Below are positions 7,111 to 21,900 of a DNA stretch of 64,000 nucleotides, one piece after another (the stretch's first letter is position 1; the number at the start of each line of letters is the position of its first letter). Source of the stretch: Candidatus Geothermocultor quzhuomuensis (GTDB taxonomy: Bacteria > Actinomycetota > Aquicultoria > Geothermocultorales > Geothermocultoraceae); the NCBI GenBank assembly GCA_015711795.1, contig JACVJC010000002.1, positions 35,649 to 99,648 on the forward strand, given 5' to 3'. The notes beneath the pieces were generated by a model. The model did no database searches, was not told the DNA's origin, and saw only the letters and a program-made list of their open reading frames with translations. The position numbers were made by a program, and so were the translations under genes.

Positions 7111-8168
7111 AAGGATTTTATTTTATTTCGACTGAATCTTATTCGGGAAAGACAGGGTTGATTTTAGGCCTTGGCTTAAAGCTGAAAGAGAAAAATTACT
7201 TAATAGGGTATTTTAAACCAATTGGGAATCTGCCTAAGAGATTTAAAAATATGACTATTGATGAGGATGCTGACTATATTGCTCAAGTTTTAGAGCTTAA
7301 AGAACCGCTTCAATCTATCTCTCCTATTGTTCTTACTGAAGAAACCATTGAGGAAATTTTAAGAGAGGGAGACTTTGGTTATGAAGAAAGGATAAAAGAA
7401 TCTTTTGACCATATTTCTCAAGGCAAAGATGTAGTTTTAGTTGAAGGCGGGAGTGGTTTAGCTGAGGGTAAATTTATTAAACTAGCGACTAAAGATATTC
7501 CTAACCTTCTTGACCTTTTAGTTATTTTAGTGGCTAAAGGTGACAATCTTCGGGTTATTGACGAGATTTTAGAGGCAAAAGAGGAGTTAAAGGAACGACT
7601 TTTTGGTGTTATTTTTAACTACCTTCCACCTGGTAGTGAAGAGAAGATGGAGGGGGTAGTTAAACCATTTGTTAAGGAAAAAGGAATTAATGTTCTTGGG
7701 GTTATTCCTATGGATAAAACACTTTTAGGCGTAACCATTGAAGAAATTGTTTCTTCTCTAAAAGGGAAGTTTCTTTGTTGCCCTGAAAAGGGAAGTGAAT
7801 TAGTTGAGACTTTTATGGTTGGGGCAATGGGTCAAGAAAAAGCACTTAGATTTTTCCGTCGCAAAGGCGAAAAAGCAGTGATTACGGGGGGAGATCGAGC
7901 TGATGTTCAACTAGCAGCTTTGGAAACACCAACAAAATGTCTTATTTTGACCGGAAATCTTCATCCCAGCCCTGTCGTTGTTTCTCGCTCTGAAGAGTTA
8001 GGTGTCCCTATTGTTCTTGTTCCTGATGATACTTTCACTACTATTGAAAAGATGGAAATGCTCATTGGAAGAGTCAGAGTTCACGAACCCCAAAAGCTTA
8101 AAAAAATGAAAACTTTAGTTGAGGAACATGTTGATTTAGAGCAGATTTATCAAGCCATTAAACAATAA
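7107..8168 (+). CDS. Phosphotransacetylase N-terminal-like protein (BioD-like P-loop plus DRTGG domain)
   Basis: SYSGKT, GYFKPIG, VLVEGG, ITGGDRADVQLAAL; no PTA catalytic domain; 4-nt overlap with the upstream ligase. Confidence 0.85.
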   Translation: MKGFYFISTESYSGKTGLILGLGLKLKEKNYLIGYFKPIGNLPKRFKNMTIDEDADYIAQVLELKEPLQSISPIVLTEETIEEILREGDFGYEERIKESFDHISQGKDVVLVEGGSGLAEGKFIKLATKDIPNLLDLLVILVAKGDNLRVIDEILEAKEELKERLFGVIFNYLPPGSEEKMEGVVKPFVKEKGINVLGVIPMDKTLLGVTIEEIVSSLKGKFLCCPEKGSELVETFMVGAMGQEKALRFFRRKGEKAVITGGDRADVQLAALETPTKCLILTGNLHPSPVVVSRSEELGVPIVLVPDDTFTTIEKMEMLIGRVRVHEPQKLKKMKTLVEEHVDLEQIYQAIKQ

Positions 8169-8396
8169 CTATTAGTTTGTAGTATGAGCTGAATTTTGTT
8201 TTAAAGTAATTCTCTTAGTATAACAAATCCCATTCTCACCTTATTACTTCAATATTCTTAAGAATTTGAAGATTGTGTGTAATGAGGAGATTGAGGTTTT
8301 AGGAAACGATAACCATAAAAGTGTCCCCAAAAACCTTTTTAAAAAATTTAAAGTTATGTTATAATACTTCCTCGTTTAGATTGGGAGAGGAATTCG

Positions 8397-8894
8397 TTGA
8401 GTAAGATTAAAGTAATTGAGGAGAAACTTAAAAATAAAGAGTTACCATTATTTAAACCTGGTGATTTAGTTAAAGTTCATTATAAGGTAGTTGAAGCTGG
8501 GAGGGAGCGAGTCCAAGTTTTTCAAGGTACTGTCCTTAAAATTCGAGGTAAAGGTGCTAAAAAAACCTTTACTGTTCGCAAAATATCCTTTGGTGTTGGT
8601 GTTGAGCGTATTTTTCCTCTTTATTCGCCTCGAATTGCCAAAATTGAAGTAGTGAGAAAGGGGAAAGTTCGTCGAGCTAAGCTCTATTACCTCAGGGAAA
8701 GAGTAGGTAAGGCGACTAAGGTTAAGGAAAAGAGAATGTTGGAAACCTCAGGGGTTAAAGTAGCAGAGAAGTTAGACGAAGAACCTAAAGAGGAAGTAAA
8801 GGAAGAACCGATAAAAAAGAGGGGAATTTTAAGAGGACGTTTTCACCCAAGAAGTCAAAAAGCAAATTCTAAGAAAAAAACAAGTGAGAGTTAG
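8397..8894 (+). CDS. rplS: 50S ribosomal protein L19 with charged C-terminal extension
   Basis: [36 protein letters not shown]. Confidence 0.96.
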
Positions 8895-8916
8895 TACTCT
8901 TTAATCAGGAGATTTT

Positions 8917-9444
8917 ATGCAAGACCGCGAGGGTTCTCTTCTTTCTTTTTTAAGAGAGTTGCCATTTTTGATAATTTTAGCTGTTGTAATTGCTTGGTTT
9001 GTTAAATCCTTTATTTTTCAGCCTTTTTATATTCCTTCAGGCTCAATGGAGCCAACCCTTTTACCGCAAGATAGAGTGATTGTTAATAAGTTTATTTATC
9101 GTTTTCGACCTCCTCAAAAAGGTGATATTGTTGTTTTTGTCCCTCCAAATGATTTAAAGAGAGATTATATTAAAAGAGTTGTTGCGGTGGGCGGAGAAAC
9201 ACTTGAAATTATTGAAAATGAAGTTTATATTAACGGGAAAAAAATAGTTGAGCCTTATCGGATTAATTCTTCTGACTTTTCCCACTATGGACCAATCAAA
9301 GTGCCCAAAAATTGTGTCTTTGTCATGGGGGATAATCGCCCTAATAGTTTAGATAGTCGAGTTTTTGGTCCTTTAAAAACCTCACAAATTTTAGGAAAAG
9401 CAATAGCCGTTTATTGGCCACCCTGGCGAATTAAAATACTTTAA
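8917..9444 (+). CDS. lepB: Signal peptidase I
   Basis: PSGSMEPTL, YIKRVV, MGDNRPNSLDSR. Confidence 0.95.
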   Translation: MQDREGSLLSFLRELPFLIILAVVIAWFVKSFIFQPFYIPSGSMEPTLLPQDRVIVNKFIYRFRPPQKGDIVVFVPPNDLKRDYIKRVVAVGGETLEIIENEVYINGKKIVEPYRINSSDFSHYGPIKVPKNCVFVMGDNRPNSLDSRVFGPLKTSQILGKAIAVYWPPWRIKIL

Positions 9445-9502
9445 TTTACTTGTTTTATAGCTAGCAAGTTTAGTTCTAACTTAATAACTTTTTGGAGGCA
9501 AA

Positions 9503-10504
9503 GTGGCAAAGAGGCATGCTGGTATTGTTGGTTTAGGAACATATCTTCCTTCTCGAATTTTAACAAATTTTGATTTAGAAAAGATGGTTTCCACTTCCAA
9601 CCAGTGGATTTTGGAAAGAACAGGAATCGCGGAAAGAAGAATTGTCGATAAAGAAACAACTTCAGATTTAGCAGCTAAAGCTGGGCTTAGAGCTTTAAAT
9701 GATGCTAAAGTTAAAAATAAAGTTAGGAAAAAAGATGTTGATTTAGTTATTGTTGCTACTGCTTCTCCTGATATGATTTTTCCATCAACTGCCTGTTTAG
9801 CTCAGGAAAAATTGGGTCTTAAAAATGTTCCTGCTTTTGATATTTTGGCTGCTTGTTCAGGCTTTAGTTATGGTTTAGTCATTGCTGAAAGCCTTATTAG
9901 CTCGGGTATTTATCGAACAATTCTTCTTATTGGAGCTGAAGCAATTTCTCGCTTTGTTGATTGGCAGGATCGCAGTACCTGTATTCTTTTTGGAGATGGG
10001 GCTGGCGCTGTTGTTATGCAGGAAACTGAGGAGGGCTATGGAGTTCTTTCTTCTTACTTAGCAGCTGATGGCGGAGGAAAGGATTTGTTAAAAATTCCAG
10101 CTGGTGGTGCTTTTAAACCAGCTTCTTTTGATACAGTTGAAAGAAGGCTTCATTATATCAAGATGAATGGTCGAGAGGTTTTTAAGTTTGCTGTTCAGTC
10201 AATATTTGATGCTTCTGTTAAGGCTTTAGAATTAGCTGGACTGAAAGTCTCTGATATTGATTTTTTCATTCCTCATCAGGCAAATAAAAGAATCATTGAC
10301 TCAGTGGCTAAAAAGCTCAAAATTGATTCAAAAAAGATTATTTGCAATATTTATAATTATGGAAACACCTCAACAGCTTCAATTCCTTTAGCTTTGGAGG
10401 AGATTTATCGCTCAGGTAAACTTCAAAGAGGGGATTTTATTTTAACCGTTAGCTTTGGAGGGGGTTTGGTTTGGGGAGCCAATGTTATAAGGTGGAGTTA
10501 CTAG
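9503..10504 (+). CDS. fabH: Beta-ketoacyl-ACP synthase III
   Basis: AACSGF Cys, PHQAN His, GNTSTASIP Asn triad. Confidence 0.96.
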   Translation: MAKRHAGIVGLGTYLPSRILTNFDLEKMVSTSNQWILERTGIAERRIVDKETTSDLAAKAGLRALNDAKVKNKVRKKDVDLVIVATASPDMIFPSTACLAQEKLGLKNVPAFDILAACSGFSYGLVIAESLISSGIYRTILLIGAEAISRFVDWQDRSTCILFGDGAGAVVMQETEEGYGVLSSYLAADGGGKDLLKIPAGGAFKPASFDTVERRLHYIKMNGREVFKFAVQSIFDASVKALELAGLKVSDIDFFIPHQANKRIIDSVAKKLKIDSKKIICNIYNYGNTSTASIPLALEEIYRSGKLQRGDFILTVSFGGGLVWGANVIRWSY

Positions 10505-10525
10505 TGAGAAGTGAAAGGAGAGGGG

Positions 10526-11683
10526 ATGAACTATTTTTTGACTGAAGAACAGGAAATGATTAAAAACTTAGCCCGAAAAATTACAGACGAGAAAGTCATC
10601 CCAATTAGGCAGGAACTAGATGAAAAAGAAGAATTTCCTTGGGAAGTATTAAAAGTTCTCAGCCAATCGGATTTGATGGGTTTATTTATACCTCCTGAAT
10701 ATGGAGGTTTTGGTTTTGGTTGTTTTGAGATGTGTCTGGTCATTGAAGAACTAAGTCGTGGATGTGGAGGAGTAGCTGTAACTTTTGCTGCCAATGCTCT
10801 TGGCGCTTATCCTATTTTCTTGTTCGGAAACGAAGAGCAAAAAAAGAAATATTTACCTGATGTTGCTCGAGGGAAAAAGATTTGTGCCTTTGGCTTAACC
10901 GAAGCAGAAGCAGGAAGTGATGCAGCTGCCATTAGAACTTCAGCGATTAAGCAAGGGAACGAGTACATCCTTAATGGAACAAAACAATGGATTACCAATG
11001 GTGGAGAAGCAGATATTTATACTGTCATTGCTTTAACTGACAAATCGAAAGGCATACGGGGAGCAAGTGCTTTTATTCTTGAGAAAGGCATGGATGGTTT
11101 TTCTTTTGGCAAGAAAGAGAAGAAAATGGGCATAAGATGTTCGGCAACGAGAGAACTAGTTTTTGAAGATTGTCGAGTTCCTCAAGAAAATCTAATTGGA
11201 CGAGAAGGAATGGGATTTTTAATTGCAATGAAAACCTTAGATATGACCCGTCCAGGCATTGGAGCTCAAAGTGTTGGTATTGCTCAAGGGGCTTTTGAAG
11301 AAGCCCTTAAATATTCTCGAGAGCGAAAACAATTTGGGCAATCTATCTCATCTTTCCAAGCCATTCAGCATATGTTAGCAGATATGGCAACTCAAATTGA
11401 GGCAGCCCGTGCCCTGGTCTATGCAGTAGCTCGATTCATTGATTCCGGAGCTAAAGAGTTTTCTCGAGAATCAGCGATGGCAAAACTTTTTGCTTCCGAT
11501 ATAGCAATGAATGTTACCACTAATGCAGTTCAGATAATGGGAGGTTATGGCTATATGCGTGATTATCCTGTTGAGAAAATGATGAGAGACGCTAAGATTA
11601 CTCAAATTTATGAAGGAACTAATCAAATTCAAAGGAATATTATTGCTTTAAGTTTAATCAAAGAAGCTAGCTCTTGGAGATAA
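10526..11683 (+). CDS. Acyl-CoA dehydrogenase (butyryl-CoA dehydrogenase-like)
   Basis: FGLTEAEAGSD, LNGTKQWITNG, RKQFG, IYEGTNQIQR; start moved to ATG 10526. Confidence 0.93.
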   Translation: MNYFLTEEQEMIKNLARKITDEKVIPIRQELDEKEEFPWEVLKVLSQSDLMGLFIPPEYGGFGFGCFEMCLVIEELSRGCGGVAVTFAANALGAYPIFLFGNEEQKKKYLPDVARGKKICAFGLTEAEAGSDAAAIRTSAIKQGNEYILNGTKQWITNGGEADIYTVIALTDKSKGIRGASAFILEKGMDGFSFGKKEKKMGIRCSATRELVFEDCRVPQENLIGREGMGFLIAMKTLDMTRPGIGAQSVGIAQGAFEEALKYSRERKQFGQSISSFQAIQHMLADMATQIEAARALVYAVARFIDSGAKEFSRESAMAKLFASDIAMNVTTNAVQIMGGYGYMRDYPVEKMMRDAKITQIYEGTNQIQRNIIALSLIKEASSWR

Positions 11684-11687
11684 TTCA

Positions 11688-12473
11688 GTGGAGATAATTG
11701 TTTGTATAAAGCAAGTTCCTGAATCAACCGAGGTCAAGATTAACCCCCAAACCAAAACTTTAGTTCGGGAAAGTGTTAAAGGGATTATTAATCCCTTTGA
11801 TATGTACGCTATTGAGGAAGCTTTAAGACTAAAGGAGAAGTTGGGGGGGAAGGTGACTGCTTTAAGTATGGGTCCACCTCAAGCTGAAGAATCTTTAAGA
11901 GAAGCAATTTCACTCGGTGTTGATGAGGCTATTCTCTTAAGTGATAAAAGTTTTGCTGGTGCTGATACATTAGCTACTGCTTATACTTTAGCCCAGGCAA
12001 TTAAAAGAATTTCTCAATTTGACTTGATAATTTGTGGTAAACAAACTATGGATGGCGATACAGCTCAAGTTGGACCAAGTTTAGCTGAAAAACTTGGTAT
12101 TCCTCATGTTGCTTATGTGAGGAAAATTAATGAGGTTAAAACGGATTCAATTATCTTAGAGCAGATGGTTGAGGAAGGTTATCGGCGTATCAAGATGAGC
12201 CTACCTGGTCTAATTACGGTGGTTAAGGAAATAAATGAGCCAAGATTACCTTCCCTTCGCGGAAAAATGAGGGCTAAAAGCGTTGAGATTTTAATTTGGG
12301 GTGTTAATGATTTTAATATTGAGAAGGAAAAGGTTGGACTTGAAGGTTCTCCAACTCAAGTCATTAAGATTTTTGCTCCTCAGAGGAGGAAGAAGGGCGA
12401 AATTCTCCAAGGTGACATTGATAGTCAGGTTGAACAGTTGGTTAATAAGTTAAAAGAGAGTAGGGTCATTTAA
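11688..12473 (+). CDS. etfB: Electron transfer flavoprotein beta subunit
   Basis: VCIKQVP, INPFD, GADTLATA, DGDTAQVGP, INEPRLPS. Confidence 0.95.
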   Translation: MEIIVCIKQVPESTEVKINPQTKTLVRESVKGIINPFDMYAIEEALRLKEKLGGKVTALSMGPPQAEESLREAISLGVDEAILLSDKSFAGADTLATAYTLAQAIKRISQFDLIICGKQTMDGDTAQVGPSLAEKLGIPHVAYVRKINEVKTDSIILEQMVEEGYRRIKMSLPGLITVVKEINEPRLPSLRGKMRAKSVEILIWGVNDFNIEKEKVGLEGSPTQVIKIFAPQRRKKGEILQGDIDSQVEQLVNKLKESRVI

Positions 12474-13670
12474 GTGAAAACTTTGGATATTTGGGTGATT
12501 GAAGAGAAGTGTAACGGTTGTCAGCTTTGTTTTAAAGCTTGTCCTTACAATGCTATAGAGATAATTAAAAAAAAGGCTGTCATAAAAAAAGAAAATTGTA
12601 ATTTATGTGGTGCTTGTGTTAATGCCTGTCGTTTTGAAGCAATCTTTATAGCTTGCAAGGTTCCGTTAGAACCCGTAGTGGGTTATGAGGGAATTTGGGT
12701 CTTTGTTGAACAAAAGAATGGGAAGTTAGCTCCAGTTGTTTATGAGATTATTGGAGAAGGGAGGAGATTAGCTCAAAAGCTAGGAGCATCTCTTTCAGCT
12801 GTTCTTTTAGGAAGTAAGCTGGAACACCTTGTGGATGAACTAAAGTTTTATCATTTAGACCGGATTTACCTGGTAGATGACCCGGCTCTTAGTGTTTTTA
12901 TGGATGAACCTTACTCCTTTGTTCTTTCCAATCTTATTAAGAAATATAAACCAGAGATTTTTTTAGGGGGGGCTACTTCAATTGGTCGCTCTTTAATCCC
13001 GAGGGTTGCTTCCATTCTTGAAACTGGTTTGACCGCTGATTGCACTTCCTTAGATGTTGATGTGGCTAAAAGACTTTTATTACAAACTCGCCCCGCCTTT
13101 GGTGGCAATATAATGGCAACGATTATTTGCCCTGAAAAACGCCCACAGATGGCAACGGTTCGACCTCATGTAATGAAAAGAGCAGCTAAAAGTTCTGAGG
13201 GCAAATGTGAAATCATAAAAGAAAAATTTGCTATCCCTCCCTTTAAGACACATTATCTTGATTTTATCGAGGACATAATGGAAAATGTTAAGCTGGAAGA
13301 CGCTGATATTATTGTTTCAGGCGGGAGAGGTTTAGGGAAAGCTGAAAACTTTATCATTCTTCAAGAGTTAGCCGATGTTTTAGGGGCAGCTATTGGTGCT
13401 TCCCGAGCAGCCGTTGACGCAGGATGGATATCTTACTCACATCAAATAGGCCAAACAGGAAAAACCGTCAGTCCCAAGGTGTATATTGCCTGTGGCATTT
13501 CTGGGGCTATTCAACATTTAGCTGGGATGCAGACCTCAGAAATCATTATTGCGATTAATAAAGACCCAGATGCCCCCATTTTTCAAAGTGCTACTTATGG
13601 AATTGTTGGTGACTTGTTTGAAATTATTCCCAAACTTACTAAGAAACTTAAAGAAATTTTAGGGAATTAA
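12474..13670 (+). CDS. etfA: Electron transfer flavoprotein alpha subunit with N-terminal 2x[4Fe-4S] ferredoxin domain
   Basis: CNGCQLCFKAC and CNLCGACVNAC, then GLTADCT, RPAFGGN, QIGQTGKTV, GISGAIQH. Confidence 0.95.
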   Translation: MKTLDIWVIEEKCNGCQLCFKACPYNAIEIIKKKAVIKKENCNLCGACVNACRFEAIFIACKVPLEPVVGYEGIWVFVEQKNGKLAPVVYEIIGEGRRLAQKLGASLSAVLLGSKLEHLVDELKFYHLDRIYLVDDPALSVFMDEPYSFVLSNLIKKYKPEIFLGGATSIGRSLIPRVASILETGLTADCTSLDVDVAKRLLLQTRPAFGGNIMATIICPEKRPQMATVRPHVMKRAAKSSEGKCEIIKEKFAIPPFKTHYLDFIEDIMENVKLEDADIIVSGGRGLGKAENFIILQELADVLGAAIGASRAAVDAGWISYSHQIGQTGKTVSPKVYIACGISGAIQHLAGMQTSEIIIAINKDPDAPIFQSATYGIVGDLFEIIPKLTKKLKEILGN

Positions 13671-13688
13671 AAGGGAGCTTGTTAAAGA

Positions 13689-14624
13689 GTGAGGAAAATT
13701 GCCTTTCTCTTCCCAGGTCAAGGTTCGCAGTATGTCGGCATGGGTCTATCTTTTTATCAGAACTTCTCTTTAGCCCAAGAAATTTTTGAGCGATCAGAAA
13801 AAATTTTAAAATGGGAAATAAAAAAAATTTGTTTTGAAGGACCACTTGAAGAACTTTCTCAAACATACTACTCCCAGTTAGCCATCTTTATCGTTGATTA
13901 CATTGCTTATCTTCTAATTAGTCAAAAAGGATTAAAGGCAAGTTTCTTAGCTGGTCATAGTCTTGGAGAATATGTTGCAGTTGTAGCATCTGGAGCTTTA
14001 AGTTTTGAGGAAGGCTTAAAGTTGGTTAATGAGAGAGCAAAGCTTATGGACGAAGCATCAAGAGAGATTTCAGGAGGAATGGTTGCTGTTCTTGGGCTTC
14101 AAACTGATAAGGTTGAAAAAATAGTTAAAAAGCACGGAGTCCAAATTGCTAATTACAATTGCCCTGGCCAAGTAGTTGTTTCAGGAAAAGAAGAAAACCT
14201 CCAAAAATTTTCCCAAGAGATAAAAGGAGCTGGAGCTAGGAAAGTGGTAAGGCTTATGGTCAGCGGGCCTTTTCATTCAAAATATATGAAAAAAACTTCG
14301 GAGAAATTTAAATTGATTTTAAATAAAGTCAAATTTCAAGATAGTCAAATACCAATCATTTCAAATTTTTCCGCTAAAAAGGTTTACAGAAGCGAGGAAA
14401 TTAGAGAAAATTTAGCCAATCAATTAGCAGGTTCGGTGCTTTGGCAAGATTCGATGGAATTGATTTTGAAGGAAGGAGCTTCAATTTTTATCGAGCTTGG
14501 TCCGGGTAAGGTTCTTTCTCGGATAATTAGGAGGATAGCTCAAGATATTTTAGTCTTTAATGTCGAGAATAAAGATTCACTAATTATCTTGGAGGATTCT
14601 TTGAAAGGAATTGGTGAAATTTAA
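13689..14624 (+). CDS. fabD: Malonyl-CoA:ACP transacylase
   Basis: FPGQGSQ, GHSLGEY, VSGPFHS. Confidence 0.96.
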   Translation: MRKIAFLFPGQGSQYVGMGLSFYQNFSLAQEIFERSEKILKWEIKKICFEGPLEELSQTYYSQLAIFIVDYIAYLLISQKGLKASFLAGHSLGEYVAVVASGALSFEEGLKLVNERAKLMDEASREISGGMVAVLGLQTDKVEKIVKKHGVQIANYNCPGQVVVSGKEENLQKFSQEIKGAGARKVVRLMVSGPFHSKYMKKTSEKFKLILNKVKFQDSQIPIISNFSAKKVYRSEEIRENLANQLAGSVLWQDSMELILKEGASIFIELGPGKVLSRIIRRIAQDILVFNVENKDSLIILEDSLKGIGEI

Positions 14625-15370
14625 TGGACTTAAAAGGTAAATCAGCTATTGTTACTGGTGGTTCTAGGGGAATTGGACGAGCAATTTGCCTTAAGTTAGC
14701 TAAATTGGGTGCCGATGTCGCTATCAACTATTATCCTGGTTTAAAGGAGGAAGCAGAGGAACTTAAAAAAGAGATAGAAAAGATTGGTTCTAGAGGATAC
14801 CCAATTGAAGCTGATATATCCAAAATGGATGAAGCAAAAAAGTTAATTGAGCAAGCTGTTGCCACGATGGGGAAAGTAGATATTTTAGTCAATAATGCAG
14901 GAATTACTAGAGATAGTTTAATTTTAAGAATGAGTGAGGATGATTGGGAGAGTGTCCTAGCAGTTAATTTAAAAGGGGTTTTCAATTGTTCACAGGCTGT
15001 TGCTAAGTATATGGTTAAAGAAAGGAAAGGAGTTATAATAAATATTTCATCCGTAGTTGGTTTACGAGGCAATATTGGTCAGGCAAATTATGCAGCTTCA
15101 AAAGCTGGTGTCATTGGATTTACTAAGTCACTAGCCAAAGAGCTGGGCTCAAGAGGGATTAGAGTTAATGCGGTTGCTCCGGGATTTATCGAAACAGGTA
15201 TGACTCAAGGATTCCCTCAAGAATATCGAGAGAAGATTTTAAAGCAAATACCATTAGGCCGTTTTGGATTGCCTAAAGATGTTGCTTCTTTAGTAGCTTT
15301 CCTCGCTTCTGATGAGGCAAGTTATATTACTGGTGAAGTAATTTCAGTTAACGGGGGAATTATACTTTAA
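14624..15370 (+). CDS. fabG: 3-oxoacyl-ACP reductase
   Basis: TGGSRGIG, NNAGITRD, YAASK, VNAVAPGFI. Confidence 0.95.
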   Translation: MDLKGKSAIVTGGSRGIGRAICLKLAKLGADVAINYYPGLKEEAEELKKEIEKIGSRGYPIEADISKMDEAKKLIEQAVATMGKVDILVNNAGITRDSLILRMSEDDWESVLAVNLKGVFNCSQAVAKYMVKERKGVIINISSVVGLRGNIGQANYAASKAGVIGFTKSLAKELGSRGIRVNAVAPGFIETGMTQGFPQEYREKILKQIPLGRFGLPKDVASLVAFLASDEASYITGEVISVNGGIIL

Positions 15371-15415
15371 CTTACTTATTTTTAATTAAGTACGGGGGAA
15401 ATGGGAGGTGATTAA

Positions 15416-15655
15416 ATGGACGAGCGAATTTTTGAAAAAGTTAAAAAGATTGTTTCTACCCAGTTAAGTGTGGCTGAAGATGAAGTAAAAAAAGATTCGT
15501 CTTTTGTTGATGATTTAGGGGCTGATTCTCTTGATCTTGTTGAATTAATTATGGCTCTTGAGGAAGAATTTGCTATTCAAATCTCTGATGAAGAGGCTCA
15601 AGGGATTCGAACAGTTGGGGAAGCAGTCGATTTTATTGAACAAAAGATGGTATAA
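15416..15655 (+). CDS. acpP: Acyl carrier protein
   Basis: [14 protein letters not shown] phosphopantetheine site. Confidence 0.97.
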
Positions 15656-15678
15656 GTTACTGTAAAAGGAGTAAAGAT

Positions 15679-16665
15679 TTGAGCTTAATTCCTTTAAGAA
15701 TTGGAAAACTAGAAGTTCCTTTGCCAATTATTCAAGGGGGAATGGCAGTAAGAATTTCTCTTTCACCACTGGCAGCAGCTGTAGCTAATGAAGGTGGGAT
15801 AGGTTTAATTGGTGTTTCTGGCATGGATGTTCAAGAAATGGTTGAAGAAATTAGAAAAGCTAAGTGGCTTTCTCGAGGAGTTATAGGTATTAATGTTATG
15901 GTTGCGGTCTCTCAATTTTCTGAGCTAGTTAAGGCAGCCATTCGTGAAAAGATTGACTTAATTGTCGCTGGAGCGGGTTTCTCTAGAGAGGCTTTTGGTT
16001 GGGCTAAGGAAGCAGGGATTCCTTTTATCCCAATTGTTTCTTCCTTAAAAGCAGCTTTACTAGCTGAAAGGTGTGGGGCTGATGCGGTTATTGTTGAGGG
16101 GAAAGAAGCAGGTGGCCATTTAGGAACAGAAAAATCCTTGTTTTCCATTTTACCTGATATTATTAAAGCTCTTAAAATACCTGTAATAGCTGCTGGAGGC
16201 ATTTTAAAAGGCAAGGATATTTGGCGAGCTCTTTCGGCAGGAGCTAAAGGAGTCCAAATTGGCACTCGATTTGCAGCGAGTTTTGAATCTAGTGCTCACA
16301 AAACTTGGAAAGAAACTTATCTCAAAGCTCGGCCAGAGGATATTGTCTTAATTAATAGTCCAGTGGGCATGATTGGAAGAGCTATTCGAACCCTTTTTGT
16401 CGAGGAAATTTTAAAAGGGAAAGCGCCAAAGCCAATTAATTACAAAAGATGTGTCAAGTGTCTCAAATACTGTCAAAAAGATTATTGTATTATTGATGCT
16501 CTTACTCTTGCCCAACAAGGAGATATTGAGAGAGGGTTAGTTTTTTCAGGGGAGCGGGTTGGAGAAATAAATGAGATTTTGCCTGTTAAAAAAATAATTA
16601 AAAATCTTCTAGCTGAAGTTAAGATATATCAATCAGGGGTGAATGAGGTTTGTCAAGAAGGGTAG
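15679..16665 (+). CDS. Nitronate monooxygenase/FabK-family flavoprotein with C-terminal Cys cluster (FabX-like)
   Basis: [53 protein letters not shown]. Confidence 0.8.
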
Positions 16666-17888
16666 TGGTTACTGGCTTAGGTCCGATTTCACCTAATGGG
16701 ATAGGGAAAGAATCATTTTGGCACGCGCTTATTAATGGTTATTCGGGAATTGATAAGATTTCATTTTTTGATACTTCTGATTACCCCTCTCAGATCGCTG
16801 GTGAAGTCAGAGATTTTAATCCTCTTGATTTTCTTGATGCTAAGGAATGCAAAAGACTAGACCGATTTAGTCATTTTGCTCTTGCTGCAACCAAATTAGC
16901 TCTTGAAGATGCTAATTTAAAAATTGATGCCAGTAACGCTGAAAGAGTAGGAGTAATTGTTGGTTCAGGCATAGGGGGCCTTTTTACATTAGAAAAGGAA
17001 CATCAAATTTTATTGGAGAAAGGACCGAGAAGGGTAAGCCCCTTTTTGATTCCTATGATGATTGCTAATATGGCAGCGGGCAACATAGCTATTTATAGTG
17101 GGGCAAAGGGGCCAAATAGTTGTGTTGTAACTGCTTGTGCAACTAGTACCCACGCAATTGGAGAGGCCTTTGAGTTAATTAAAAGAGGGGCAGCGGAAGT
17201 TTGCATCACTGGTGGAGCAGAGGCACCTATTACTCCTTTAAGCTTAGCCGGCTTTTGTGCTCTTCGAGCTCTTTCAACTCGTAATGAGGAGCCTCAAAAA
17301 GCTAGTCGTCCTTTTGATGCTAAAAGGGATGGGTTTGTTATCAGCGAAGGAGCAGGAATTTTAGTTTTAGAAGAGATGAACGCAGCTCTCAAGAGAGGGG
17401 CTCATATTTATTGTGAAATTGTTGGTTATGGGATGAGCGGAGATGCTTATCATATTACAGCCCCTGACCCTGAAGGTAAAGGAGCTGCTCGAGCCATGCA
17501 AAATGCTTTAAATGAAGCCAACATCGAGGCTTCATTAGTAAATTACATTAATGCCCATGGAACTTCTACTCCCTACAATGACGAGTTTGAAACTTTAGCC
17601 ATTAAAAATGTCTTCGGCTCACACGCTTACAACCTCATTGTTTCTTCAACAAAATCTATGACTGGTCATCTACTAGGAGCAGCTGGAGGGCTAGAGGCAA
17701 TAATTTGCTCTCTTGTAATTGAGAGAAGTGTTATCCCTCCAACCATAAATTATGAATTCCCTGACCCCCTTTGCGATTTAAATTATGCTCCCAATAAAGC
17801 GATTAATAGGGAAGTTAAGGTGGCTTTGTCGAACTCTCTCGGATTCGGTGGTCATAATGCCACCCTTTGCTTTAAAAAGTTTGAGTAG
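16650..17888 (+). CDS. fabF: Beta-ketoacyl-ACP synthase II
   Basis: [34 protein letters not shown]. Confidence 0.96.
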
Positions 17889-18584
17889 ATGGAAGAGTTT
17901 CTAAACCACTTAAAAAAAGCAGAAAAAAGAATCGGAGTTAAATTTAAGGATAAATTTTTTCTTTTCCAAGCTTTAGTCCACAATTCTTTTGCTTTTGAGA
18001 GGAATATCTCTTCATCATTTCAAAAATTAGAATTTTTAGGAGATGCTGTTTTAAACCTTGTGGTTGCGGAATTTGTTTTTTTTCGCTTTCCCCATTATGA
18101 CGAGGGAAAATTAGCTAAAATGAGAGCGAAATTAGTTAATAAGGTAGTTCTCTCCGAGGTGGCTTTTAAGATTGGGCTTGATGAGCTGATTCTTCTCGGG
18201 AAAGGGGCTAAAGGAGATGAAAGAGGAAAAATAAGTTCAATTTTTTCCGATTCAGTTGAAGCTTTAATTGGAGCTATCTTCTTAGACCAGGGGCTAGCTA
18301 AAGCTAAAAACTTTATTTTAACTTATTTTCAAGATTTTCTCTTTGGGAAGGAAAGAGTTGAAGAGGATTACAAGACTGAGCTCCAGGAGCTCTCTATAAA
18401 GAAATTAGGTGCTTTGCCAGTTTACAATCTTGTAGAAGAGGAGGGTCCTGTTCATTCGCGTATTTTTACAACAGAGGTCAAAATTAAAAGGAAAAAGTAT
18501 GGAGTGGGAAAAGGGATGAGTAAAAAAACTTCTGAACAGCAAGCAGCCAAAGAAGCTTTAAAAAAACTAAGAGAAATGAAATAA
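17889..18584 (+). CDS. rnc: Ribonuclease III
   Basis: KLEFLGDAVL signature, SDSVEALIGA, C-terminal dsRBD. Confidence 0.95.
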   Translation: MEEFLNHLKKAEKRIGVKFKDKFFLFQALVHNSFAFERNISSSFQKLEFLGDAVLNLVVAEFVFFRFPHYDEGKLAKMRAKLVNKVVLSEVAFKIGLDELILLGKGAKGDERGKISSIFSDSVEALIGAIFLDQGLAKAKNFILTYFQDFLFGKERVEEDYKTELQELSIKKLGALPVYNLVEEEGPVHSRIFTTEVKIKRKKYGVGKGMSKKTSEQQAAKEALKKLREMK

Positions 18585-18808
18585 ATCTTCAAGAGAGAGG
18601 TTTGGATTTTGCATAAAAAGCCCTATTAATTTTGGGTTTTGAATAATTAATGTTTATTTGGCTTTAGTTTTGGTAAACTTGTTACCCTTTTAGCTTTAAA
18701 TTTAGTGATTATTTCACTTTGCTAAGTCTATTAAATGAATAATTAATGAATATAATTCCCTTTATTGATTAAAAATTCTAAGATACTGGAAATGTTTAAA
18801 AAATAGTA

Positions 18809-18837
18809 TTGACAAAAAAAAAATTTCGTTATATACT
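18809..18837 (+). promoter_or_regulatory. Sigma70-type promoter
   Basis: TTGACA (18809-14), 17-nt spacer, TATACT (18832-37). Confidence 0.8.
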
Positions 18838-18843
18838 ATGCAG

Positions 18844-18892
18844 CGTAGGAGAACGGGCTTTCGCCTCCTTTCACCCGTTCTCCGGTTTTTTT
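18844..18892 (+). ncRNA. Putative ~50-nt single-hairpin small RNA or attenuated leader with anti-SD loop
   Basis: 10-bp stem GGAGAACGGG/CCCGTTCTCC, loop CTTTCGCCTCCTTTCA, T7 tract, immediately after the promoter. Confidence 0.55.
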
Positions 18893-18975
18893 AACATACC
18901 AGAAATATACCCCTTTTTCAAGAATATTTTTATCTATGGTAAAATAACTTTTCAGAACAAGTTTCGGAGGTTGGT

Positions 18976-21900
18976 TTGTATTTAAAATCTTTATCTGTTC
19001 GGGGATTTAAATCTTTTGCGGATAAAGTTGTTTTACTCTTTGAACCTGGAATTTCAGTAATTGTTGGTCCTAATGGTAGCGGAAAGAGTAACTTAATCGA
19101 TGCAATCCTTTGGGTTTTAGGTGAACAAAGTCCACATTCCTTGAGAGGGGGAGCGATGGAAGATGTTATTTTTGCTGGTAGCTCTTCTCGTGCTCCTCTT
19201 GGTGTCGCTGAAGCCTCTTTAACTTTAGACAACTCTGATGGCTTTTTACCCATTGATTTTTCCGAGGTTTGCATCTCAAGAAGGATTTATCGTTCTGGCG
19301 AAAGTGACTATTTTCTTAATGGAAGCCCTTGTCGACTTTTAGATATTCAAGAACTCCTCTCTGACTCTGGCATTAGTCAAAGATTACATACCATAGTAGG
19401 GCAGGGGCAGATGGAAGAGATAATTAATAGTAAACCTGAGGAGAGAAGAGTTTTAATTGAAGAAGTAGCTGGCATTTTTAAGTATCGGAGGAGAAAGGAA
19501 AAAGCTTTAAAGAAACTTTCTTCAATTGATGAGAAGTTAGTAAGATTGAAGGATATTATTTATGAGCTTAATCGTCAGTTGAAACCACTCCAGGAACAAG
19601 CTTCCAAGGCTGAAAGATTTCAAAAAATTCAAGATGAACTTAGGAACTTGCAAGTGGGTTTAGCTGTTTCTAGATTAAGAGCTTTTCAAAAGGAATGGCA
19701 AAGATTAAAAGAGAATCAAAAAAATAAGGAGAAAGAATATTTAAGCTCAAAGAAAGCGTTGGAGAGGAACATTAAATGGATTGAAAGCTTGCAGGTTGAA
19801 CTGGAAAAAAAAGGTCTCTTTGTCGGTGATTTAACTGAAAAAAAAGAGAAATTAAGAAGCATTTATGACCGCTTAAACTCAGGCCTTCTTCTCTTAGAAG
19901 AAAAGGGGAAAAATTTGGTGGAGAAACTTTCAGAGATTCGTCGGAAGATTTACCAAGTTGATATGGGGAAAAGAGCAAACGAGGAGAGGTTATCAGCTAT
20001 TCGAGGGGAAAAAGCCACTATTGACAATCACCTTGCAGATATTCATCAAGCCCTTGCTGACCTTCGGAGAAGAAGCGAACAGATAAAGAAAGACCGAAAG
20101 CAAATTGAGGAAGAGGAAAAACTACTTGAAAGGAAGATTAGACTCGCTCGAGAAAACTTGAGAGAGAAAAGACAGCTTTTCGAAGAAAGAGGCTTAGAGA
20201 GGGTTAAGCTAGAATCTAATTTAACCTTTTTGGATTGGCAGAAAAATGAGCTTAAAAAGAAAGAGAAAGAAATTTTAAGTAGATTAAAAGAGATTGAAAG
20301 TGAGGAAGCTAAGCTAAAAATTAATCTAGATAAAATGAGAAAGTCTTTCAGTTCTTTCGATAAAGAGGAGGAGGTAACTCAAGAAAAAATTAGTTTAGAG
20401 AAAGAGAAAAGAGAAAAATTAGAGAAAGAGCAAGATGAAATTAATTTTCAAAAAAGGGCTCTTGAGACAGAAGCAAAGTTCCCTTTTGAAGTTCCTGAAT
20501 TTAATAATCTTAACACTCTTGGATTTTTATCAGATTTTTTAGAAATTTCCCCAGGATATGAAAGATTTGTTGAAATATTTTTAAGTGATTATTTCTTCTC
20601 ACTGCTTGTTGGAAAGGGAAGCGAAGTCAAAACTATTTTTTCCAAACTTAAAAAAGCTGAAACTTTTCTTTCCCTTTTTTCATTAGAAAAAATTAAAGAA
20701 AATGTTGCTTCTCTAAAAATTAATCCTGGTTTTCCCTTGAGAGATGTAGTTAAAGCAAAAGGAGAAGCTAAAAAGGTAGTTGATTTTCTTTTTAAAGATG
20801 TTTTTTTAGTAGATGATTTTAAAGTTGCTTTAAAACTTGCTAAAACTTACCCCGAAGCAACTTTTGTCAGCAAAGATGGCATGGTTGTTTATCCTCATGG
20901 TCTTTTTAGGCTTGATACTCGCCGAGGCGGGGGATTAATAACTAAAAGGAAAATTGCCCTTGAGCTTAATTCAAAAGAAGCTTCTTTAAGAGCAGAAATT
21001 AATCATTGTGAAGAGGAAATAGCTCGCTTAGTTAAATGGAAAAAGAATATTGAGAGCAAGAAAGATAATTTGTTAAAAAATTTAAGGGAGGAAGAAGGGA
21101 AAATCCACTTTTTAAGAGCAGAGAAGGTTCAACTTGAGGAAAGGTTAGGGGAATTAAACCAAAAATTAGAAGAGATTTCCAAGGAGATCAAAGAAGAAAG
21201 TTTAAAATTGGAAGAAGAAAAGAAAAACTTAGCTCGAAGTCGAGAAGGGATTGCTTTAATGGAAAAAAACTTAATTGAGATAGAGGCTTTAAGAGCGAAG
21301 CTAGGGAAAAGAAAGGAAGAAAAAATTGAAGAAGAAGGAAAAATTAGTCAGGAAATCAGTGATTGCCAAGTTGAAATGGCGACTTTAATTGAGAAGCAAG
21401 GTTTTTTCAAAAAGGAGTTAATTTCTTTAGAAAAAGAAATTCAAGAAGGAGAGAACTTCCTTTTAACTGAGGGGAAAATAGTAGATTCCCTTGAAAGATT
21501 AAAAGATAGGATCGAACCCCTTAATAAGGTTTATCTTCAGCATCTGGAGTTTGTGGAAGAAAAACTTTCTTTTTTAGAAAACTTAAAAGAAATTGAAAAG
21601 GATAAGGTCTTTAATGTTAAAGATAAGATTGTCCAACTTCAAGAGGAGTGTAAAGCCCAATCTGATTTAATCGAGAAACTACAGCAAGAAATGGAAGAAG
21701 CAAAGATTTTAAAGGTTCAATTGGAAGAAAAGGTTTCTTCAGTAGCGAGAAAAATTCTTGATGAGTTTAATCTCCCAGTTGAGACAGCCTTAGAAAAGTA
21801 TTCTAATTTTGAGTTAAGGGAGGAGGTTTGCGAGGAGAGAATTAAAAAACTAAAGGCTGACATGGAAAGTATTGGTCAAGTTAATCCTTTAGCAATTAAA

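What the first reader, a model, noticed from the sequence alone, without database searches (positions are those of the whole stretch)
9503..17888. Electron-bifurcating-type Bcd/EtfAB module inside a fatty-acid synthesis operon with no recognisable enoyl-ACP reductase
Seen: fabH, acyl-CoA dehydrogenase, etfB, ferredoxin-etfA, fabD, fabG, acpP, flavoprotein, fabF, with gaps of 0-45 nt, so one transcript is likely. No fabI or fabZ is present. Known: Bcd-EtfAB and CarCDE (whose EtfA also carries two [4Fe-4S] clusters) reduce enoyl-CoA with NADH while reducing ferredoxin; the EtfB motifs NPFD and DGDTAQVGP fit that group. Inference: the complex may be a bifurcating enoyl-ACP reductase that couples lipid synthesis to ferredoxin reduction. 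Alternatives are supplying short acyl-CoA primers to FabH or exchanging electrons with the FabX-like enzyme. I know of no described FAS II with this layout.
Basis: partly seen in the sequence, partly recalled or inferred. Interest (0 to 1): 0.85.

Follow-up and report, generated by a model that had tools for sequence, protein, structure and literature searches.

The report
Flavoprotein complex replacing lipid-synthesis reductase FabK
In this anaerobe's fatty-acid synthesis operon, a butyryl-CoA-dehydrogenase-like enzyme with its electron-transfer flavoprotein sits exactly where relatives carry the enoyl reductase FabK, so it is probably a new kind of enoyl-ACP reductase, and the same enzyme is found in many anaerobic phyla that lack every known one.

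Summary
The gene order is as reported: fabH, acd, etfB, ferredoxin-etfA, fabD, fabG, acpP, an NMO flavoprotein, fabF, rnc, with gaps of -16 to 45 nt. The Etf is of the bifurcating type, and EtfA carries a CarE-like 2x[4Fe-4S] domain.

In 41 same-class genomes, 27 carry a high-scoring FabK and none of these has the Acd. Eleven carry the Acd and none of these has such a FabK. In the FabK genomes the operon is fabH-fabK-fabD-fabG-acpP-(NMO)-fabF-rnc, so acd-etfBA fills the FabK slot.

The own genome (100% complete) has one SDR (FabG), no FabI/L/V hit, and no crotonase or thiolase.

Of 50 other Acd-bearing genomes from several phyla, 47 have FabZ. Two have FabI, one has FabK over cut-off, and none has FabL or FabV. 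In a Nitrospirota class the counts are Acd 56/64, FabI 0/64 and FabK 0/64.

The operon's NMO protein is a separate FabX-like paralogue with a 4-Cys insert.

Best reading: Acd/EtfBA is the enoyl-ACP reductase and probably bifurcates. No biochemistry exists, and nine paper searches found no description.

The parts
9503..10504 (+). fabH, beta-ketoacyl-ACP synthase III
   Evidence: TIGR00747 406 bits, over the cut-off of 292. It directly precedes acd, gap 6 nt.
10511..11683 (+). acd, acyl-CoA dehydrogenase family protein of the Bcd type, with catalytic Glu368 in YEGT; the proposed enoyl-ACP reductase catalytic subunit
   Evidence: Four ACAD Pfam domains. Best NCBIfam hit is AcrC at 479 bits, below its cut-off of 640. 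Best PDB hits are C. difficile Bcd 5ol2_C at 434 bits and A. fermentans Bcd 4l1f. E368 is invariant in 35 sequences. It is the only ACAD match in the genome at E<=1e-60. It occupies the FabK slot.
11688..12473 (+). etfB, small subunit of a bifurcating-type electron-transfer flavoprotein (NPFD at residue 35, DGDTAQVGP at residue 122)
   Evidence: PF01012. The five best PDB hits are the bifurcating ETFs LctB, CarD, A. fermentans, T. maritima and C. difficile at 229-242 bits; canonical ETFs score 97 bits or less. Motif positions.
12474..13670 (+). etfA with an N-terminal 2x[4Fe-4S] ferredoxin domain (residues about 1-65, nt 12474-12670), CarE-like
   Evidence: Fer4, ETF and ETF_alpha domains. Full-length match to CarE 6fah_A at 430 bits, residues 6-395. 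Cys at 13, 16, 19, 23 and at 42, 45, 48, 52. It is the only EtfA match in the genome.
13689..14624 (+). fabD, malonyl-CoA:ACP transacylase
   Evidence: TIGR00128 335 bits, over the cut-off.
14624..15370 (+). fabG, 3-oxoacyl-ACP reductase; the only SDR found in the genome
   Evidence: TIGR01830 346 bits. The PF13561 search of the whole genome gave this one match.
15416..15655 (+). acpP, acyl carrier protein
   Evidence: TIGR00517 112 bits. The DSL motif is invariant in 35 sequences.
15679..16665 (+). NMO2, a FabK/FabX-family FMN protein with catalytic His147 and a Cys insert C258-x2-C261-x3-C265-x4-C270 (nt 16450-16488); not the FabK orthologue
   Evidence: PF03060 195 bits. TIGR03151 206 bits against a cut-off of 453. 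PDB: T. maritima FabK E 1e-49, H. pylori FabX E 2e-40. The four Cys are invariant in 19 of 19 orthologues and absent from 13 of 13 true FabKs. The C-terminal part matches FabX best, and three of FabX's cluster Cys align. Residue positions.
16650..17888 (+). fabF, beta-ketoacyl-ACP synthase II
   Evidence: TIGR03150 646 bits.
17889..18584 (+). rnc, ribonuclease III; conserved 3' neighbour of the operon
   Evidence: TIGR02191 230 bits. It follows fabF in the relatives.

Best explanation
acd-etfB-etfA encodes the enoyl-ACP reductase of this organism's type II fatty-acid synthase. It has displaced FabK at FabK's own place in the operon.

Proposed mechanism, inferred from the Bcd/EtfAB and CarCDE complexes:
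- NADH reduces the bifurcating FAD on EtfB.
- One electron goes through the EtfA FAD to the Acd FAD, which reduces trans-2-enoyl-ACP to acyl-ACP. Glu368 acts as the acid/base.
- The other electron goes, probably through the two [4Fe-4S] clusters fused to EtfA, to ferredoxin.

Each elongation cycle would then yield reduced ferredoxin, which the cell's [FeFe]-hydrogenase could reoxidise.

Shown here: gene content, the family and type of each subunit, positional replacement of FabK, mutual exclusion with canonical reductases, and absence of a CoA-level pathway. Inferred: the ACP thioester as substrate, and bifurcation.

My odds are about 0.7 for the reductase role and about 0.7 for bifurcation given that role. 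The confidence of 0.5 given for this entry is for both together.
For: 1. Slot replacement. Twelve FabK-type clusters from same-class genomes read fabH-fabK-fabD-fabG-acpP-(NMO2)-fabF-rnc. Here and in eight relatives, acd-etfB-etfA stands between fabH and fabD instead.

2. Mutual exclusion in 41 same-class genomes. Twenty-seven have a FabK of 426 bits or more and 0 of these have the Acd. Eleven have the Acd and 0 of these have such a FabK.

3. Own genome (100% complete):
- one SDR, which is FabG
- no FabV hit (no positive control)
- the only strong FabK-family hit is NMO2
- FabZ is present

4. No route to enoyl-CoA in the own genome. ECH_1 gave 0 hits. 3HCDH_N gave only hits of 28 bits or less. 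Thiolase_N hit only FabH. There is a single ACAD and a single Etf.

5. G009 (99% complete) has the module in the slot, no NMO-family hit at all, and only FabG plus one generic SDR.

6. Fifty Acd-bearing genomes from other phyla:
- FabZ in 47 of 50
- strong FabI in 2 of 50
- FabK over cut-off in 1 of 50
- FabL over cut-off in 0 of 50, with the B. subtilis control ringing
- FabV in 0 of 50
- 29 of 50 have no hit in any of the four reductase searches

7. The three genomes with strong FabI or FabK fall in one starred subclade of the Acd tree. I then predicted that the fourth member, L100, would have a canonical reductase. It has a FabI at 44% identity. Four others tested in the same call have none.

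8. Class of G041: Acd in 56 of 64, FabI in 0 of 64, FabK over cut-off in 0 of 64.

9. Of 80 loci, 46 have fab genes within 6 kb on the same strand. Sixteen read fabH|acd|etfB.

10. The Etf is of the bifurcating type. A CarE-like Fd domain is present here and in 39 of 40 EtfAs in the 80 loci.

11. ACAD-fold enzymes acting on carrier-protein thioesters exist. The hit lists include prolyl-ACP dehydrogenase 4irn, and the NCBIfam models for prolyl-PCP dehydrogenase and MbtN acyl-ACP dehydrogenase.

12. Ferredoxin metabolism is present: an [FeFe]-hydrogenase and a 2-oxoacid:ferredoxin oxidoreductase.
Against: - There is no biochemical or genetic test of any member.
- The Acd is most similar to CoA-dependent Bcds. 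I could show no ACP-specific feature.
- The own genome also holds NMO2, a FabK-family protein. G017 (100% complete) has neither FabK nor Acd, only an NMO2-like gene, beside a fabH-fabD-fabG-acpP-fabF-rnc operon. NMO2 may therefore be able to act as a reductase.
- Some Acd-bearing genomes have other candidates:
  - four of 50 have NMO proteins of 260-358 bits
  - two have weak FabI-like hits at 28-32% identity
  - three have FabL-like hits of 208-212 bits
- G043 (L080), G067 (L058), G085 (L076) and G153 (L100) have the Acd/Etf together with FabK or FabI.
- Thirty-four of 80 loci show no fab gene near acd. Many are cut by contig ends, but L037, L070 and L080 have full flanks of housekeeping genes.
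- The FabV searches had no positive control.
- Completeness is not given for genomes reached through loci.
- Related genomes are not independent observations.
- A Bcd with a canonical, non-bifurcating ETF has been described in F. nucleatum (abstract of PMC12630350, seen in the listing). Etf type alone therefore does not prove bifurcation.
Confidence: 0.5

Rival explanations
1. Acd/EtfBA is the enoyl-ACP reductase but does not bifurcate. Electrons pass from NADH (or from reduced ferredoxin through the fused clusters) via Etf to the Acd, with no net ferredoxin reduction.
For: All the genomic evidence for the reductase role applies equally. G009 and G002 carry EtfAs without the ferredoxin domain, with matches starting at query residues 68 and 72. 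A Bcd working with a non-bifurcating ETF is reported in F. nucleatum (abstract of PMC12630350 in the listing).
Against: EtfB scores 229-242 bits against the five solved bifurcating ETFs and 97 bits or less against canonical ones. It also carries the bifurcating-type motifs. The CarE-like cluster domain is kept in 39 of 40 EtfAs in the 80 loci.
Confidence: 0.2
2. NMO2 (15679-16665) is the working enoyl-ACP reductase here. It would be a FabK variant, perhaps fed by ferredoxin through an Fe-S cluster. Acd/EtfBA would have another role, such as redox balancing.
For: NMO2 is full-length homologous to T. maritima FabK at E 1e-49 and keeps the catalytic His. G017 has an NMO2-like gene as its only FabK-family or Acd candidate.
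Against: NMO2 coexists with a true FabK in 7 of 12 FabK-type clusters fetched, so it is not FabK's equivalent. It scores 206 against a cut-off of 453. Its Cys insert lies where FabX has its [4Fe-4S] loop. According to passages of PMC8626469, that loop replaces FabK's NAD(P)H motif. G009 has none, and 33 of 50 other Acd-bearing genomes have no NMO hit at E<=1e-30. This reading does not explain why Acd/EtfBA excludes FabK and takes its slot.
Confidence: 0.15
3. Acd/EtfBA runs in the oxidative direction on acyl-ACP. It would make trans-2-enoyl-ACP for anaerobic unsaturated fatty-acid synthesis, alone or with the FabX-like NMO2.
For: NMO2 resembles FabX, a dehydrogenase/isomerase. Bifurcating ETFs are reversible in principle; this is recalled knowledge, not a tool result.
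Against: This leaves the genome, and most Acd-bearing genomes, with no enoyl reductase at all. The module replaces FabK, not a FabA/FabM-type gene. Most carriers lack NMO2.
Confidence: 0.05
4. The complex reduces short enoyl-CoAs to supply acyl-CoA primers (for example butyryl-CoA) to the neighbouring FabH.
For: The closest characterised relatives are butyryl-CoA dehydrogenases and acryloyl-CoA reductase. The gene follows fabH.
Against: The genome has no crotonase, no true 3-hydroxyacyl-CoA dehydrogenase and no thiolase, so it has no evident source of enoyl-CoA. This reading does not explain the exclusion with FabK or the missing reductase. In Omnitrophota the module follows fabF or rnc, not fabH.
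Confidence: 0.05

Closest known systems
Bcd/EtfAB, the electron-bifurcating butyryl-CoA dehydrogenase complex of C. difficile and A. fermentans (PDB 5ol2, 4l1f, 4kpu)
   Same: Three-gene module acd-etfB-etfA. The Acd scores 432-434 bits against these Bcds, and its catalytic Glu is in YEGT. EtfB and EtfA give best-class matches to these ETFs.
   Different: It lies inside a FAS II operon in the FabK slot, in a genome without crotonase, hbd or thiolase. EtfA has an extra 2x[4Fe-4S] domain. The presumed substrate is enoyl-ACP of all chain lengths, not crotonyl-CoA; this is inferred.
CarCDE, the caffeyl-CoA reductase-Etf complex of Acetobacterium woodii (PDB 6fah)
   Same: EtfA (CarE) with the same N-terminal two-cluster ferredoxin domain, matched over residues 6-395 at 430 bits. 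EtfB matches CarD at 241 bits.
   Different: The Acd is closer to Bcd (434 bits) than to CarC (334 bits). The context is biosynthetic, not respiratory.
FabK, the FMN-dependent enoyl-ACP reductase II (TIGR03151)
   Same: Same operon position and, by inference, the same reaction. The two are mutually exclusive in 41 same-class genomes.
   Different: Unrelated fold and cofactors: an ACAD with FAD plus a two-FAD ETF and Fe-S clusters, against a single TIM-barrel FMN protein. It possibly reduces ferredoxin as well.
FabX of Helicobacter pylori, a [4Fe-4S]/FMN acyl-ACP dehydrogenase/isomerase (PDB 7e1q); compared with NMO2, not with the Acd
   Same: NMO fold and catalytic His. The Cys-rich insert lies at the same place, and three of FabX's four cluster Cys align.
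   Different: NMO2 has 328 aa against 363, and the spacing is Cx2Cx3Cx4C against Cx3Cx3Cx11C. The whole-protein match to FabX covers only residues 64-310. Its function here is unknown.
ACAD-family carrier-protein dehydrogenases (prolyl-ACP/PCP dehydrogenases such as PDB 4irn; MbtN)
   Same: They are a precedent for an ACAD fold working on phosphopantetheine-tethered thioesters. They appear as more distant hits: 4irn at 223 bits, NF045652 at 268 bits, MbtN at 79 bits.
   Different: Those enzymes are oxidative, act in secondary metabolism and have no bifurcating ETF. The window's Acd is much closer to Bcd.

Membership tests
Bcd/EtfAB-CarCDE type bifurcating acyl-thioester reductase complexes | ACAD-fold subunit with FAD-binding domains and a catalytic glutamate | tested here: met
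   Acyl-CoA_dh_N, _M and _1 domains. Glu368 in YEGT is invariant in 35 sequences. 434 bits to 5ol2_C.
Bcd/EtfAB-CarCDE type bifurcating acyl-thioester reductase complexes | EtfB of the bifurcating type (second FAD and NADH site instead of AMP) | tested here: met
   By sequence only. The five best PDB hits are bifurcating ETFs at 229-242 bits; canonical ETFs score 97 or less. NPFD and DGDTAQVGP are present. That these motifs mark the bifurcating group is recalled, not from a call.
Bcd/EtfAB-CarCDE type bifurcating acyl-thioester reductase complexes | EtfA with an FAD domain; in CarE also an N-terminal 2x[4Fe-4S] domain | tested here: met
   ETF, ETF_alpha and Fer4 domains. Full-length match to CarE. 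Eight Cys in two CxxCxxCxxxC motifs.
Bcd/EtfAB-CarCDE type bifurcating acyl-thioester reductase complexes | Substrate is an enoyl-CoA made by a CoA-level pathway | tested here: not met
   Context only. The genome has no crotonase, no true hbd and no thiolase, and the genes sit in the fab operon. Enzyme specificity itself is not testable with these tools.
Bcd/EtfAB-CarCDE type bifurcating acyl-thioester reductase complexes | NADH-dependent, substrate-coupled reduction of ferredoxin | not testable with these tools
   Needs an enzyme assay.
FabK (enoyl-ACP reductase II), asked of NMO2 at 15679-16665 | Score over the curated TIGR03151 cut-off | tested here: not met
   206 bits against 453. True FabKs of relatives score 426-508.
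FabK (enoyl-ACP reductase II), asked of NMO2 at 15679-16665 | Catalytic histidine next to FMN | tested here: met
   AGGH with His147, conserved in both the NMO2 and FabK groups.
FabK (enoyl-ACP reductase II), asked of NMO2 at 15679-16665 | FabK-type C-terminal region (the NAD(P)H motif, according to PMC8626469) | tested here: not met
   A 12-residue Cys-rich insert is absent from 13 of 13 true FabKs and from T. maritima FabK. That this region binds NAD(P)H in FabK is the paper's statement.
FabX ([4Fe-4S] NMO dehydrogenase/isomerase), asked of NMO2 | Four cysteines binding a [4Fe-4S] cluster in the C-terminal insert | tested here: inconclusive
   Four Cys are invariant in 19 of 19 orthologues. 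Three align with FabX C304, C308 and C320; the fourth is displaced. Cluster binding has not been shown.
FabI / FabL / FabV (SDR-type enoyl-ACP reductases), asked of the whole genome | Presence of a homologue | tested here: not met
   The only PF13561 match is FabG. PF12241 gave none, but that search has no positive control.

The most novel reading that the evidence does not exclude
A fifth, mechanistically distinct class of bacterial enoyl-ACP reductase exists: an acyl-CoA-dehydrogenase-fold enzyme driven by a bifurcating EtfAB, usually with a fused two-cluster ferredoxin domain. It is the housekeeping reductase of whole anaerobic lineages that lack FabI, FabK, FabL and FabV. These include a Nitrospirota class, Omnitrophota, many Desulfobacterota, Elusimicrobiota and part of this Bacillota-like class. 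It makes every elongation cycle of lipid synthesis produce reduced ferredoxin, so an anabolic pathway feeds energy conservation or hydrogen production. The FabX-like NMO2 next to it may be the missing anaerobic desaturation enzyme of these groups.
Probability: 0.45. Interest if true: 0.9.

Novelty: new variant of a known kind. Interest (0 to 1): 0.82.

Why it matters
Enoyl-ACP reductase is the step that pulls each cycle of bacterial fatty-acid synthesis forward, and it is a classic antibiotic target. As far as I recall, only the SDR types (FabI, FabL, FabV) and the FMN type (FabK) are known.

The searches here show whole groups of anaerobes with a complete FAS II set but none of these enzymes. 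They also point to one conserved candidate that fills the gap. That turns a 'missing gene' problem into a direct experiment.

If the complex bifurcates as its relatives do, lipid synthesis in these organisms would cost two NADH per reduction and return a low-potential electron pair. That changes how their redox and energy budgets, and lipid hydrogen-isotope signals, should be modelled.

It would also mean that these bacteria are blind to FabI- and FabK-directed inhibitors. Genome annotation pipelines currently label a core biosynthetic enzyme as a catabolic butyryl-CoA dehydrogenase.

Tried and rejected
Co-fold of two Acd copies with AcpP (own alignments A2 and A1): no verdict (score 0.01, mark 0.32). 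I do not use it either way.

Sequencing runs for 9503-17888: none was listed, so no RNA holder is listed and read laying was not used.

Promoter and terminator scan of 8000-19500: 25 promoter-like sites against 25.5 in shuffles, and 11 terminator-like against 9.4. No information on the transcription unit.

FabV searches: 0 of 1, 0 of 41 and 0 of 50. No control genome rang, so these blanks are weak.

SDRs outside the fab clusters of G009, G017, G041 and G042 (12 proteins): none had a FabI-named family among its listed hits. One protein in G042 hit FabL at 201 bits against a cut-off of 328.

Neighbours of acd where no fab gene is near (L037, L070, L080): housekeeping and unrelated genes, and no crotonase, hbd or thiolase. 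This neither supports nor contradicts a catabolic role.

G017 neighbourhoods: no alternative oxidoreductase beside its fab operon or beside its NMO2-like gene.

Papers: nine searches found no paper describing an acyl-CoA dehydrogenase/Etf as a fatty-acid-synthesis enoyl-ACP reductase, and none describing this operon layout.
- I read only passages of PMC4478896, PMC4916218 and bioRxiv 10.1101/2024.07.05.601840; none was relevant.
- I read passages of PMC8626469 for FabX.
- The library lacks most subscription journals, and supplements were closed, so a description may exist that I could not see.

One correction to my notebook: entry 2 says NMO2 accompanies FabK in 8 of 12 clusters. The recount gives 7 of 12, with 4 lacking it in the cluster and 1 truncated.

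Full report
**What is in the window**

Coordinates 9503-17888 hold nine genes on the + strand: fabH, an acyl-CoA dehydrogenase (acd), etfB, etfA with an N-terminal ferredoxin domain, fabD, fabG, acpP, an NMO-family flavoprotein and fabF. Then come rnc and, after a 391-nt gap, smc. rplS and lepB lie upstream. The gaps within the set are 6, 4, 0, 18, -1, 45, 23, -16 and 0 nt. Consensus scans for promoters and terminators gave no more sites than shuffled sequence, so the single-transcript idea rests on spacing and conserved order.

**The three inserted proteins**

- Acd has all the ACAD domains. It is closest to the butyryl-CoA dehydrogenases of C. difficile (5ol2_C, 434 bits) and A. fermentans (4l1f, 432 bits). 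CarC scores 334 bits. No NCBIfam equivalog reaches its cut-off; the best is acryloyl-CoA reductase AcrC at 479 against 640. The catalytic glutamate (E368 in YEGT) is invariant in 35 homologues.
- EtfB matches the five solved bifurcating ETFs at 229-242 bits and canonical ETFs at 97 bits or less. It carries NPFD and DGDTAQVGP.
- EtfA matches CarE of the caffeyl-CoA reductase complex over its full length (residues 6-395, 430 bits). It has two CxxCxxCxxxC motifs.

**Search for another enoyl-ACP reductase in the own genome**

The genome has 1.76 Mb in 38 contigs and is rated 100% complete.
- The only SDR match in the genome is FabG itself, so there is no FabI or FabL.
- The FabV domain gave nothing, but that search has no positive control.
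- FabZ lies on another contig.
- The only strong FabK-family match is the operon's own NMO protein, at 206 bits against a curated cut-off of 453.

**The NMO protein ('NMO2') is a FabK-family member but not the FabK orthologue**

- It aligns over its full length with T. maritima FabK (E 1e-49) and keeps the catalytic His.
- In an alignment of 19 orthologues and 13 true FabKs from related genomes, it has a 12-residue insert with four invariant cysteines (C258-x2-C261-x3-C265-x4-C270). No true FabK has this insert.
- Its C-terminal 129 residues match H. pylori FabX best.
- Three of FabX's four [4Fe-4S] cysteines (C304, C308, C320) align with NMO2 cysteines. The FabX residues come from passages of PMC8626469.
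- That paper states that this loop replaces the NAD(P)H motif of FabK.

**The decisive comparison is within the class**

The genome search offered 40 relatives, all 'same class' and none closer. With the own genome this gives 41 genomes.
- Twenty-seven have a FabK scoring 426-508 bits. None of these has an Acd match at E<=1e-60.
- Eleven have the Acd at 66-100% identity: G000, G002, G004 (on a cut contig), G009, G011, G012, G019, G024, G029, G034 and G040. None of these has such a FabK. They have only NMO2 at 194-214 bits, or no NMO hit at all (G009, G004).
- Three remain. G037 has two FabK-like genes of 342-357 bits. In G033 the contig ends at acpP, before the slot. G017 is discussed below.

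I fetched the loci and mapped the window's proteins, plus one true FabK, onto them.
- Twelve FabK-type clusters read fabH-fabK-fabD-fabG-acpP-(NMO2)-fabF-rnc. NMO2 lies between acpP and fabF in 7 of them, is absent from the cluster in 4, and 1 cluster is truncated.
- Eight Acd-type clusters read fabH-acd-etfB-etfA-fabD-fabG-acpP-(NMO2)-fabF-rnc. NMO2 is present in 7 and absent in G009.

So acd-etfB-etfA stands exactly where FabK stands. NMO2 is an independent accessory of both kinds of operon.

**No CoA-level pathway in the own genome**

- The crotonase family gave 0 matches.
- The 3-hydroxyacyl-CoA dehydrogenase domain gave only Rossmann-level hits of 28 bits or less.
- The thiolase domain hit only FabH (the controls rang in 13-14 of 14 genomes).
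- There is one ACAD and one EtfA in the genome.

The only evident source of a 2-enoyl thioester is FabZ acting on ACP esters. This weakens the primer-supply alternative.

**Beyond the class**

A scan of one genome per species with the Acd returned 583 confirmed relatives, of which the best 80 loci were kept. They are 66-76% identical and their records are labelled Nitrospirota/Thermodesulfovibrionia, Omnitrophota, Thermodesulfobacteriota/'Deltaproteobacteria', Elusimicrobiota, Bacillota and others.
- In 46 of 80, at least one fab gene lies on the same strand within 6 kb of acd.
- Sixteen read fabH|acd|etfB.
- In several Omnitrophota loci the module follows fabF or rnc, and in some 'Deltaproteobacteria' loci acd directly precedes fabD.
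- An NMO2-like gene is present in only 1 of the 80 loci.
- Of 40 EtfAs found in these loci, 39 have the ferredoxin domain.
- Thirty-four loci show no fab neighbour. Many are cut by contig ends, but L037, L070 and L080 have full flanks holding unrelated genes and no beta-oxidation genes.

**Canonical reductases in the genomes behind the first 50 of the 80 loci**

The other 30 were not searched, apart from five.

| Search | Result |
|---|---|
| FabZ (control for completeness and for FAS II) | 47 of 50 (41 over cut-off) |
| FabI (E. coli FabI as query) | 2 strong matches at 45-46% identity; 2 weak at 28-32% |
| FabK | 1 over cut-off; 4 genomes at 260-358 bits; 12 genomes with only weaker NMO hits (130-195 bits); 33 with none at E<=1e-30 |
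| FabL | 0 over cut-off; 3 at 208-212 bits; B. subtilis control rang |
| FabV | 0 (no positive control) |

Twenty-nine of the 50 have no hit in any of the four reductase searches.

**A prediction that held**

In a FastTree of 86 Acds, the three genomes with strong FabI or over-cut-off FabK (L058, L076, L080) fall in one well-supported subclade of Bacillota-labelled records. Their acd-etfBA is not next to fab genes. Elsewhere the tree follows the taxonomic labels, and fab-adjacent and non-adjacent members are interleaved.

I then predicted that the fourth member of that subclade (L100) would carry a canonical reductase. It has a FabI at 44% identity. Four other genomes tested in the same call (L095, L104, L097, L107) have none.

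**An independent replicate**

The class of G041, a Nitrospirota-labelled genome with the full fabH-acd-etfB-etfA-fabD-fabG-acpP-fabF-rnc cluster, gave 64 genomes.
- 56 have the Acd, one match in 55 and two pieces on separate contigs in G149, at 61-71% identity.
- 0 have FabI.
- 0 have FabK over cut-off; the best is 258 bits in one genome.

Completeness is not reported for these genomes, and kin are not independent. Still, a whole class without FabI or FabK and with a near-universal Acd is hard to explain otherwise.

**Caveats**

- G017 (100% complete) has lepB-fabH-fabD-fabG-acpP-fabF-rnc with nothing in the slot. It has no Acd and no high-scoring FabK. Its only candidate is an NMO2-like gene elsewhere. 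Either NMO2 can serve as a reductase, perhaps fed through its presumed cluster, or G017 has an unknown one. For the own genome, which has both Acd/EtfBA and NMO2, I cannot exclude that NMO2 contributes.
- Some Desulfobacterota-labelled carriers have intermediate NMO proteins.
- Four genomes have the Acd/Etf together with FabI or FabK.
- Nothing here shows that the Acd docks ACP. The co-fold gave no verdict and is not used.
- Bifurcation is inferred from the type of Etf and from the fused cluster domain. A Bcd working with a canonical ETF has been described (abstract of PMC12630350, seen in the listing).

**Mechanism proposed**

NADH reduces the EtfB flavin. One electron passes through the EtfA flavin to the Acd flavin, which reduces trans-2-enoyl-ACP. 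The other passes through the EtfA clusters to ferredoxin. From memory, the enoyl/acyl thioester couple lies near -10 mV, NADH at -320 mV and ferredoxin near -420 to -500 mV, so the coupled reaction is favourable.

The genome has an [FeFe]-hydrogenase and a 2-oxoacid:ferredoxin oxidoreductase, so a ferredoxin pool exists. ACAD-fold enzymes that act on carrier-protein thioesters are known and appear among the more distant hits.

**Novelty**

Nine full-text searches found no paper describing an Acd/Etf as the enoyl-ACP reductase of FAS II, and none describing this operon layout. The library is open-access only, and supplements were closed. The enzyme family is known; the biosynthetic, ACP-linked role and its breadth would be new. 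I rate it a new variant of a known kind, of high interest.

My odds:
- about 0.7 that the complex is the enoyl-ACP reductase
- about 0.5 that it is both the reductase and bifurcating
- 0.15 that NMO2 is the real reductase here

Noticed in passing
window 15679-16665; L115-L118, L121, L127, L128: NMO2, a FabK-family protein with an invariant Cx2Cx3Cx4C insert at the place of FabX's [4Fe-4S] loop. It sits between acpP and fabF in both FabK-type and Acd/Etf-type operons of this class. It may be an anaerobic FabX-like enzyme for unsaturated fatty acids, or a ferredoxin-linked reductase.
   Followed up: partly
G017: L165 (fab operon), L120 (NMO2-like gene at 8031-8975, minus strand): A 100%-complete same-class genome has a fab operon with neither FabK nor Acd/Etf. 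Its only FabK-family gene is an NMO2-like one, lying among sugar-nucleotide genes. Its enoyl-ACP reductase is unidentified.
   Followed up: partly
G046, G047, G048, G049, G056, G082, G083, G090: Several Nitrospirota- and Deltaproteobacteria-labelled Acd carriers have NMO-family ORFs of 365-378 aa scoring 130-153 bits to FabK. That is the length class of H. pylori FabX (363 aa). I did not examine them for the Cys motif.
   Followed up: no
L031-L034 (G026, G021, G014, G036): Four FabK-type relatives carry an etfB-etfA pair, 46-54% identical to the window's and without the ferredoxin domain. No Acd or fab genes are near it. This is a different Etf system in the same class.
   Followed up: no
window 5014-7110 and 7107-8168: An ADP-forming acetyl-CoA synthetase-type gene (698 aa, TIGR02717 582 bits). 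It overlaps by 4 nt a 353-aa protein with weak similarity to the N-terminal part of phosphate acetyltransferase and to CBS-domain proteins.
   Followed up: no
window 8397-8894: The rplS ORF is called at 165 aa from a TTG start, but the L19 model covers only residues 3-112 of it, leaving a C-terminal tail of about 50 residues outside the model (a model of 114 positions). The tail is unexplained.
   Followed up: no
window 18809-18837: The best sigma-70-like match in the scanned stretch (TTGACA-17-TATACT, 11 of 12) lies in the 391-nt gap before smc. This fits a separate smc promoter after the fab-rnc unit.
   Followed up: no
G076 (genome of L067): Nine NMO/FabK-family matches (183-358 bits), each on a different contig of a 2.8-Mb MAG. 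That is unusually many and may reflect a mixed bin or a family expansion.
   Followed up: no
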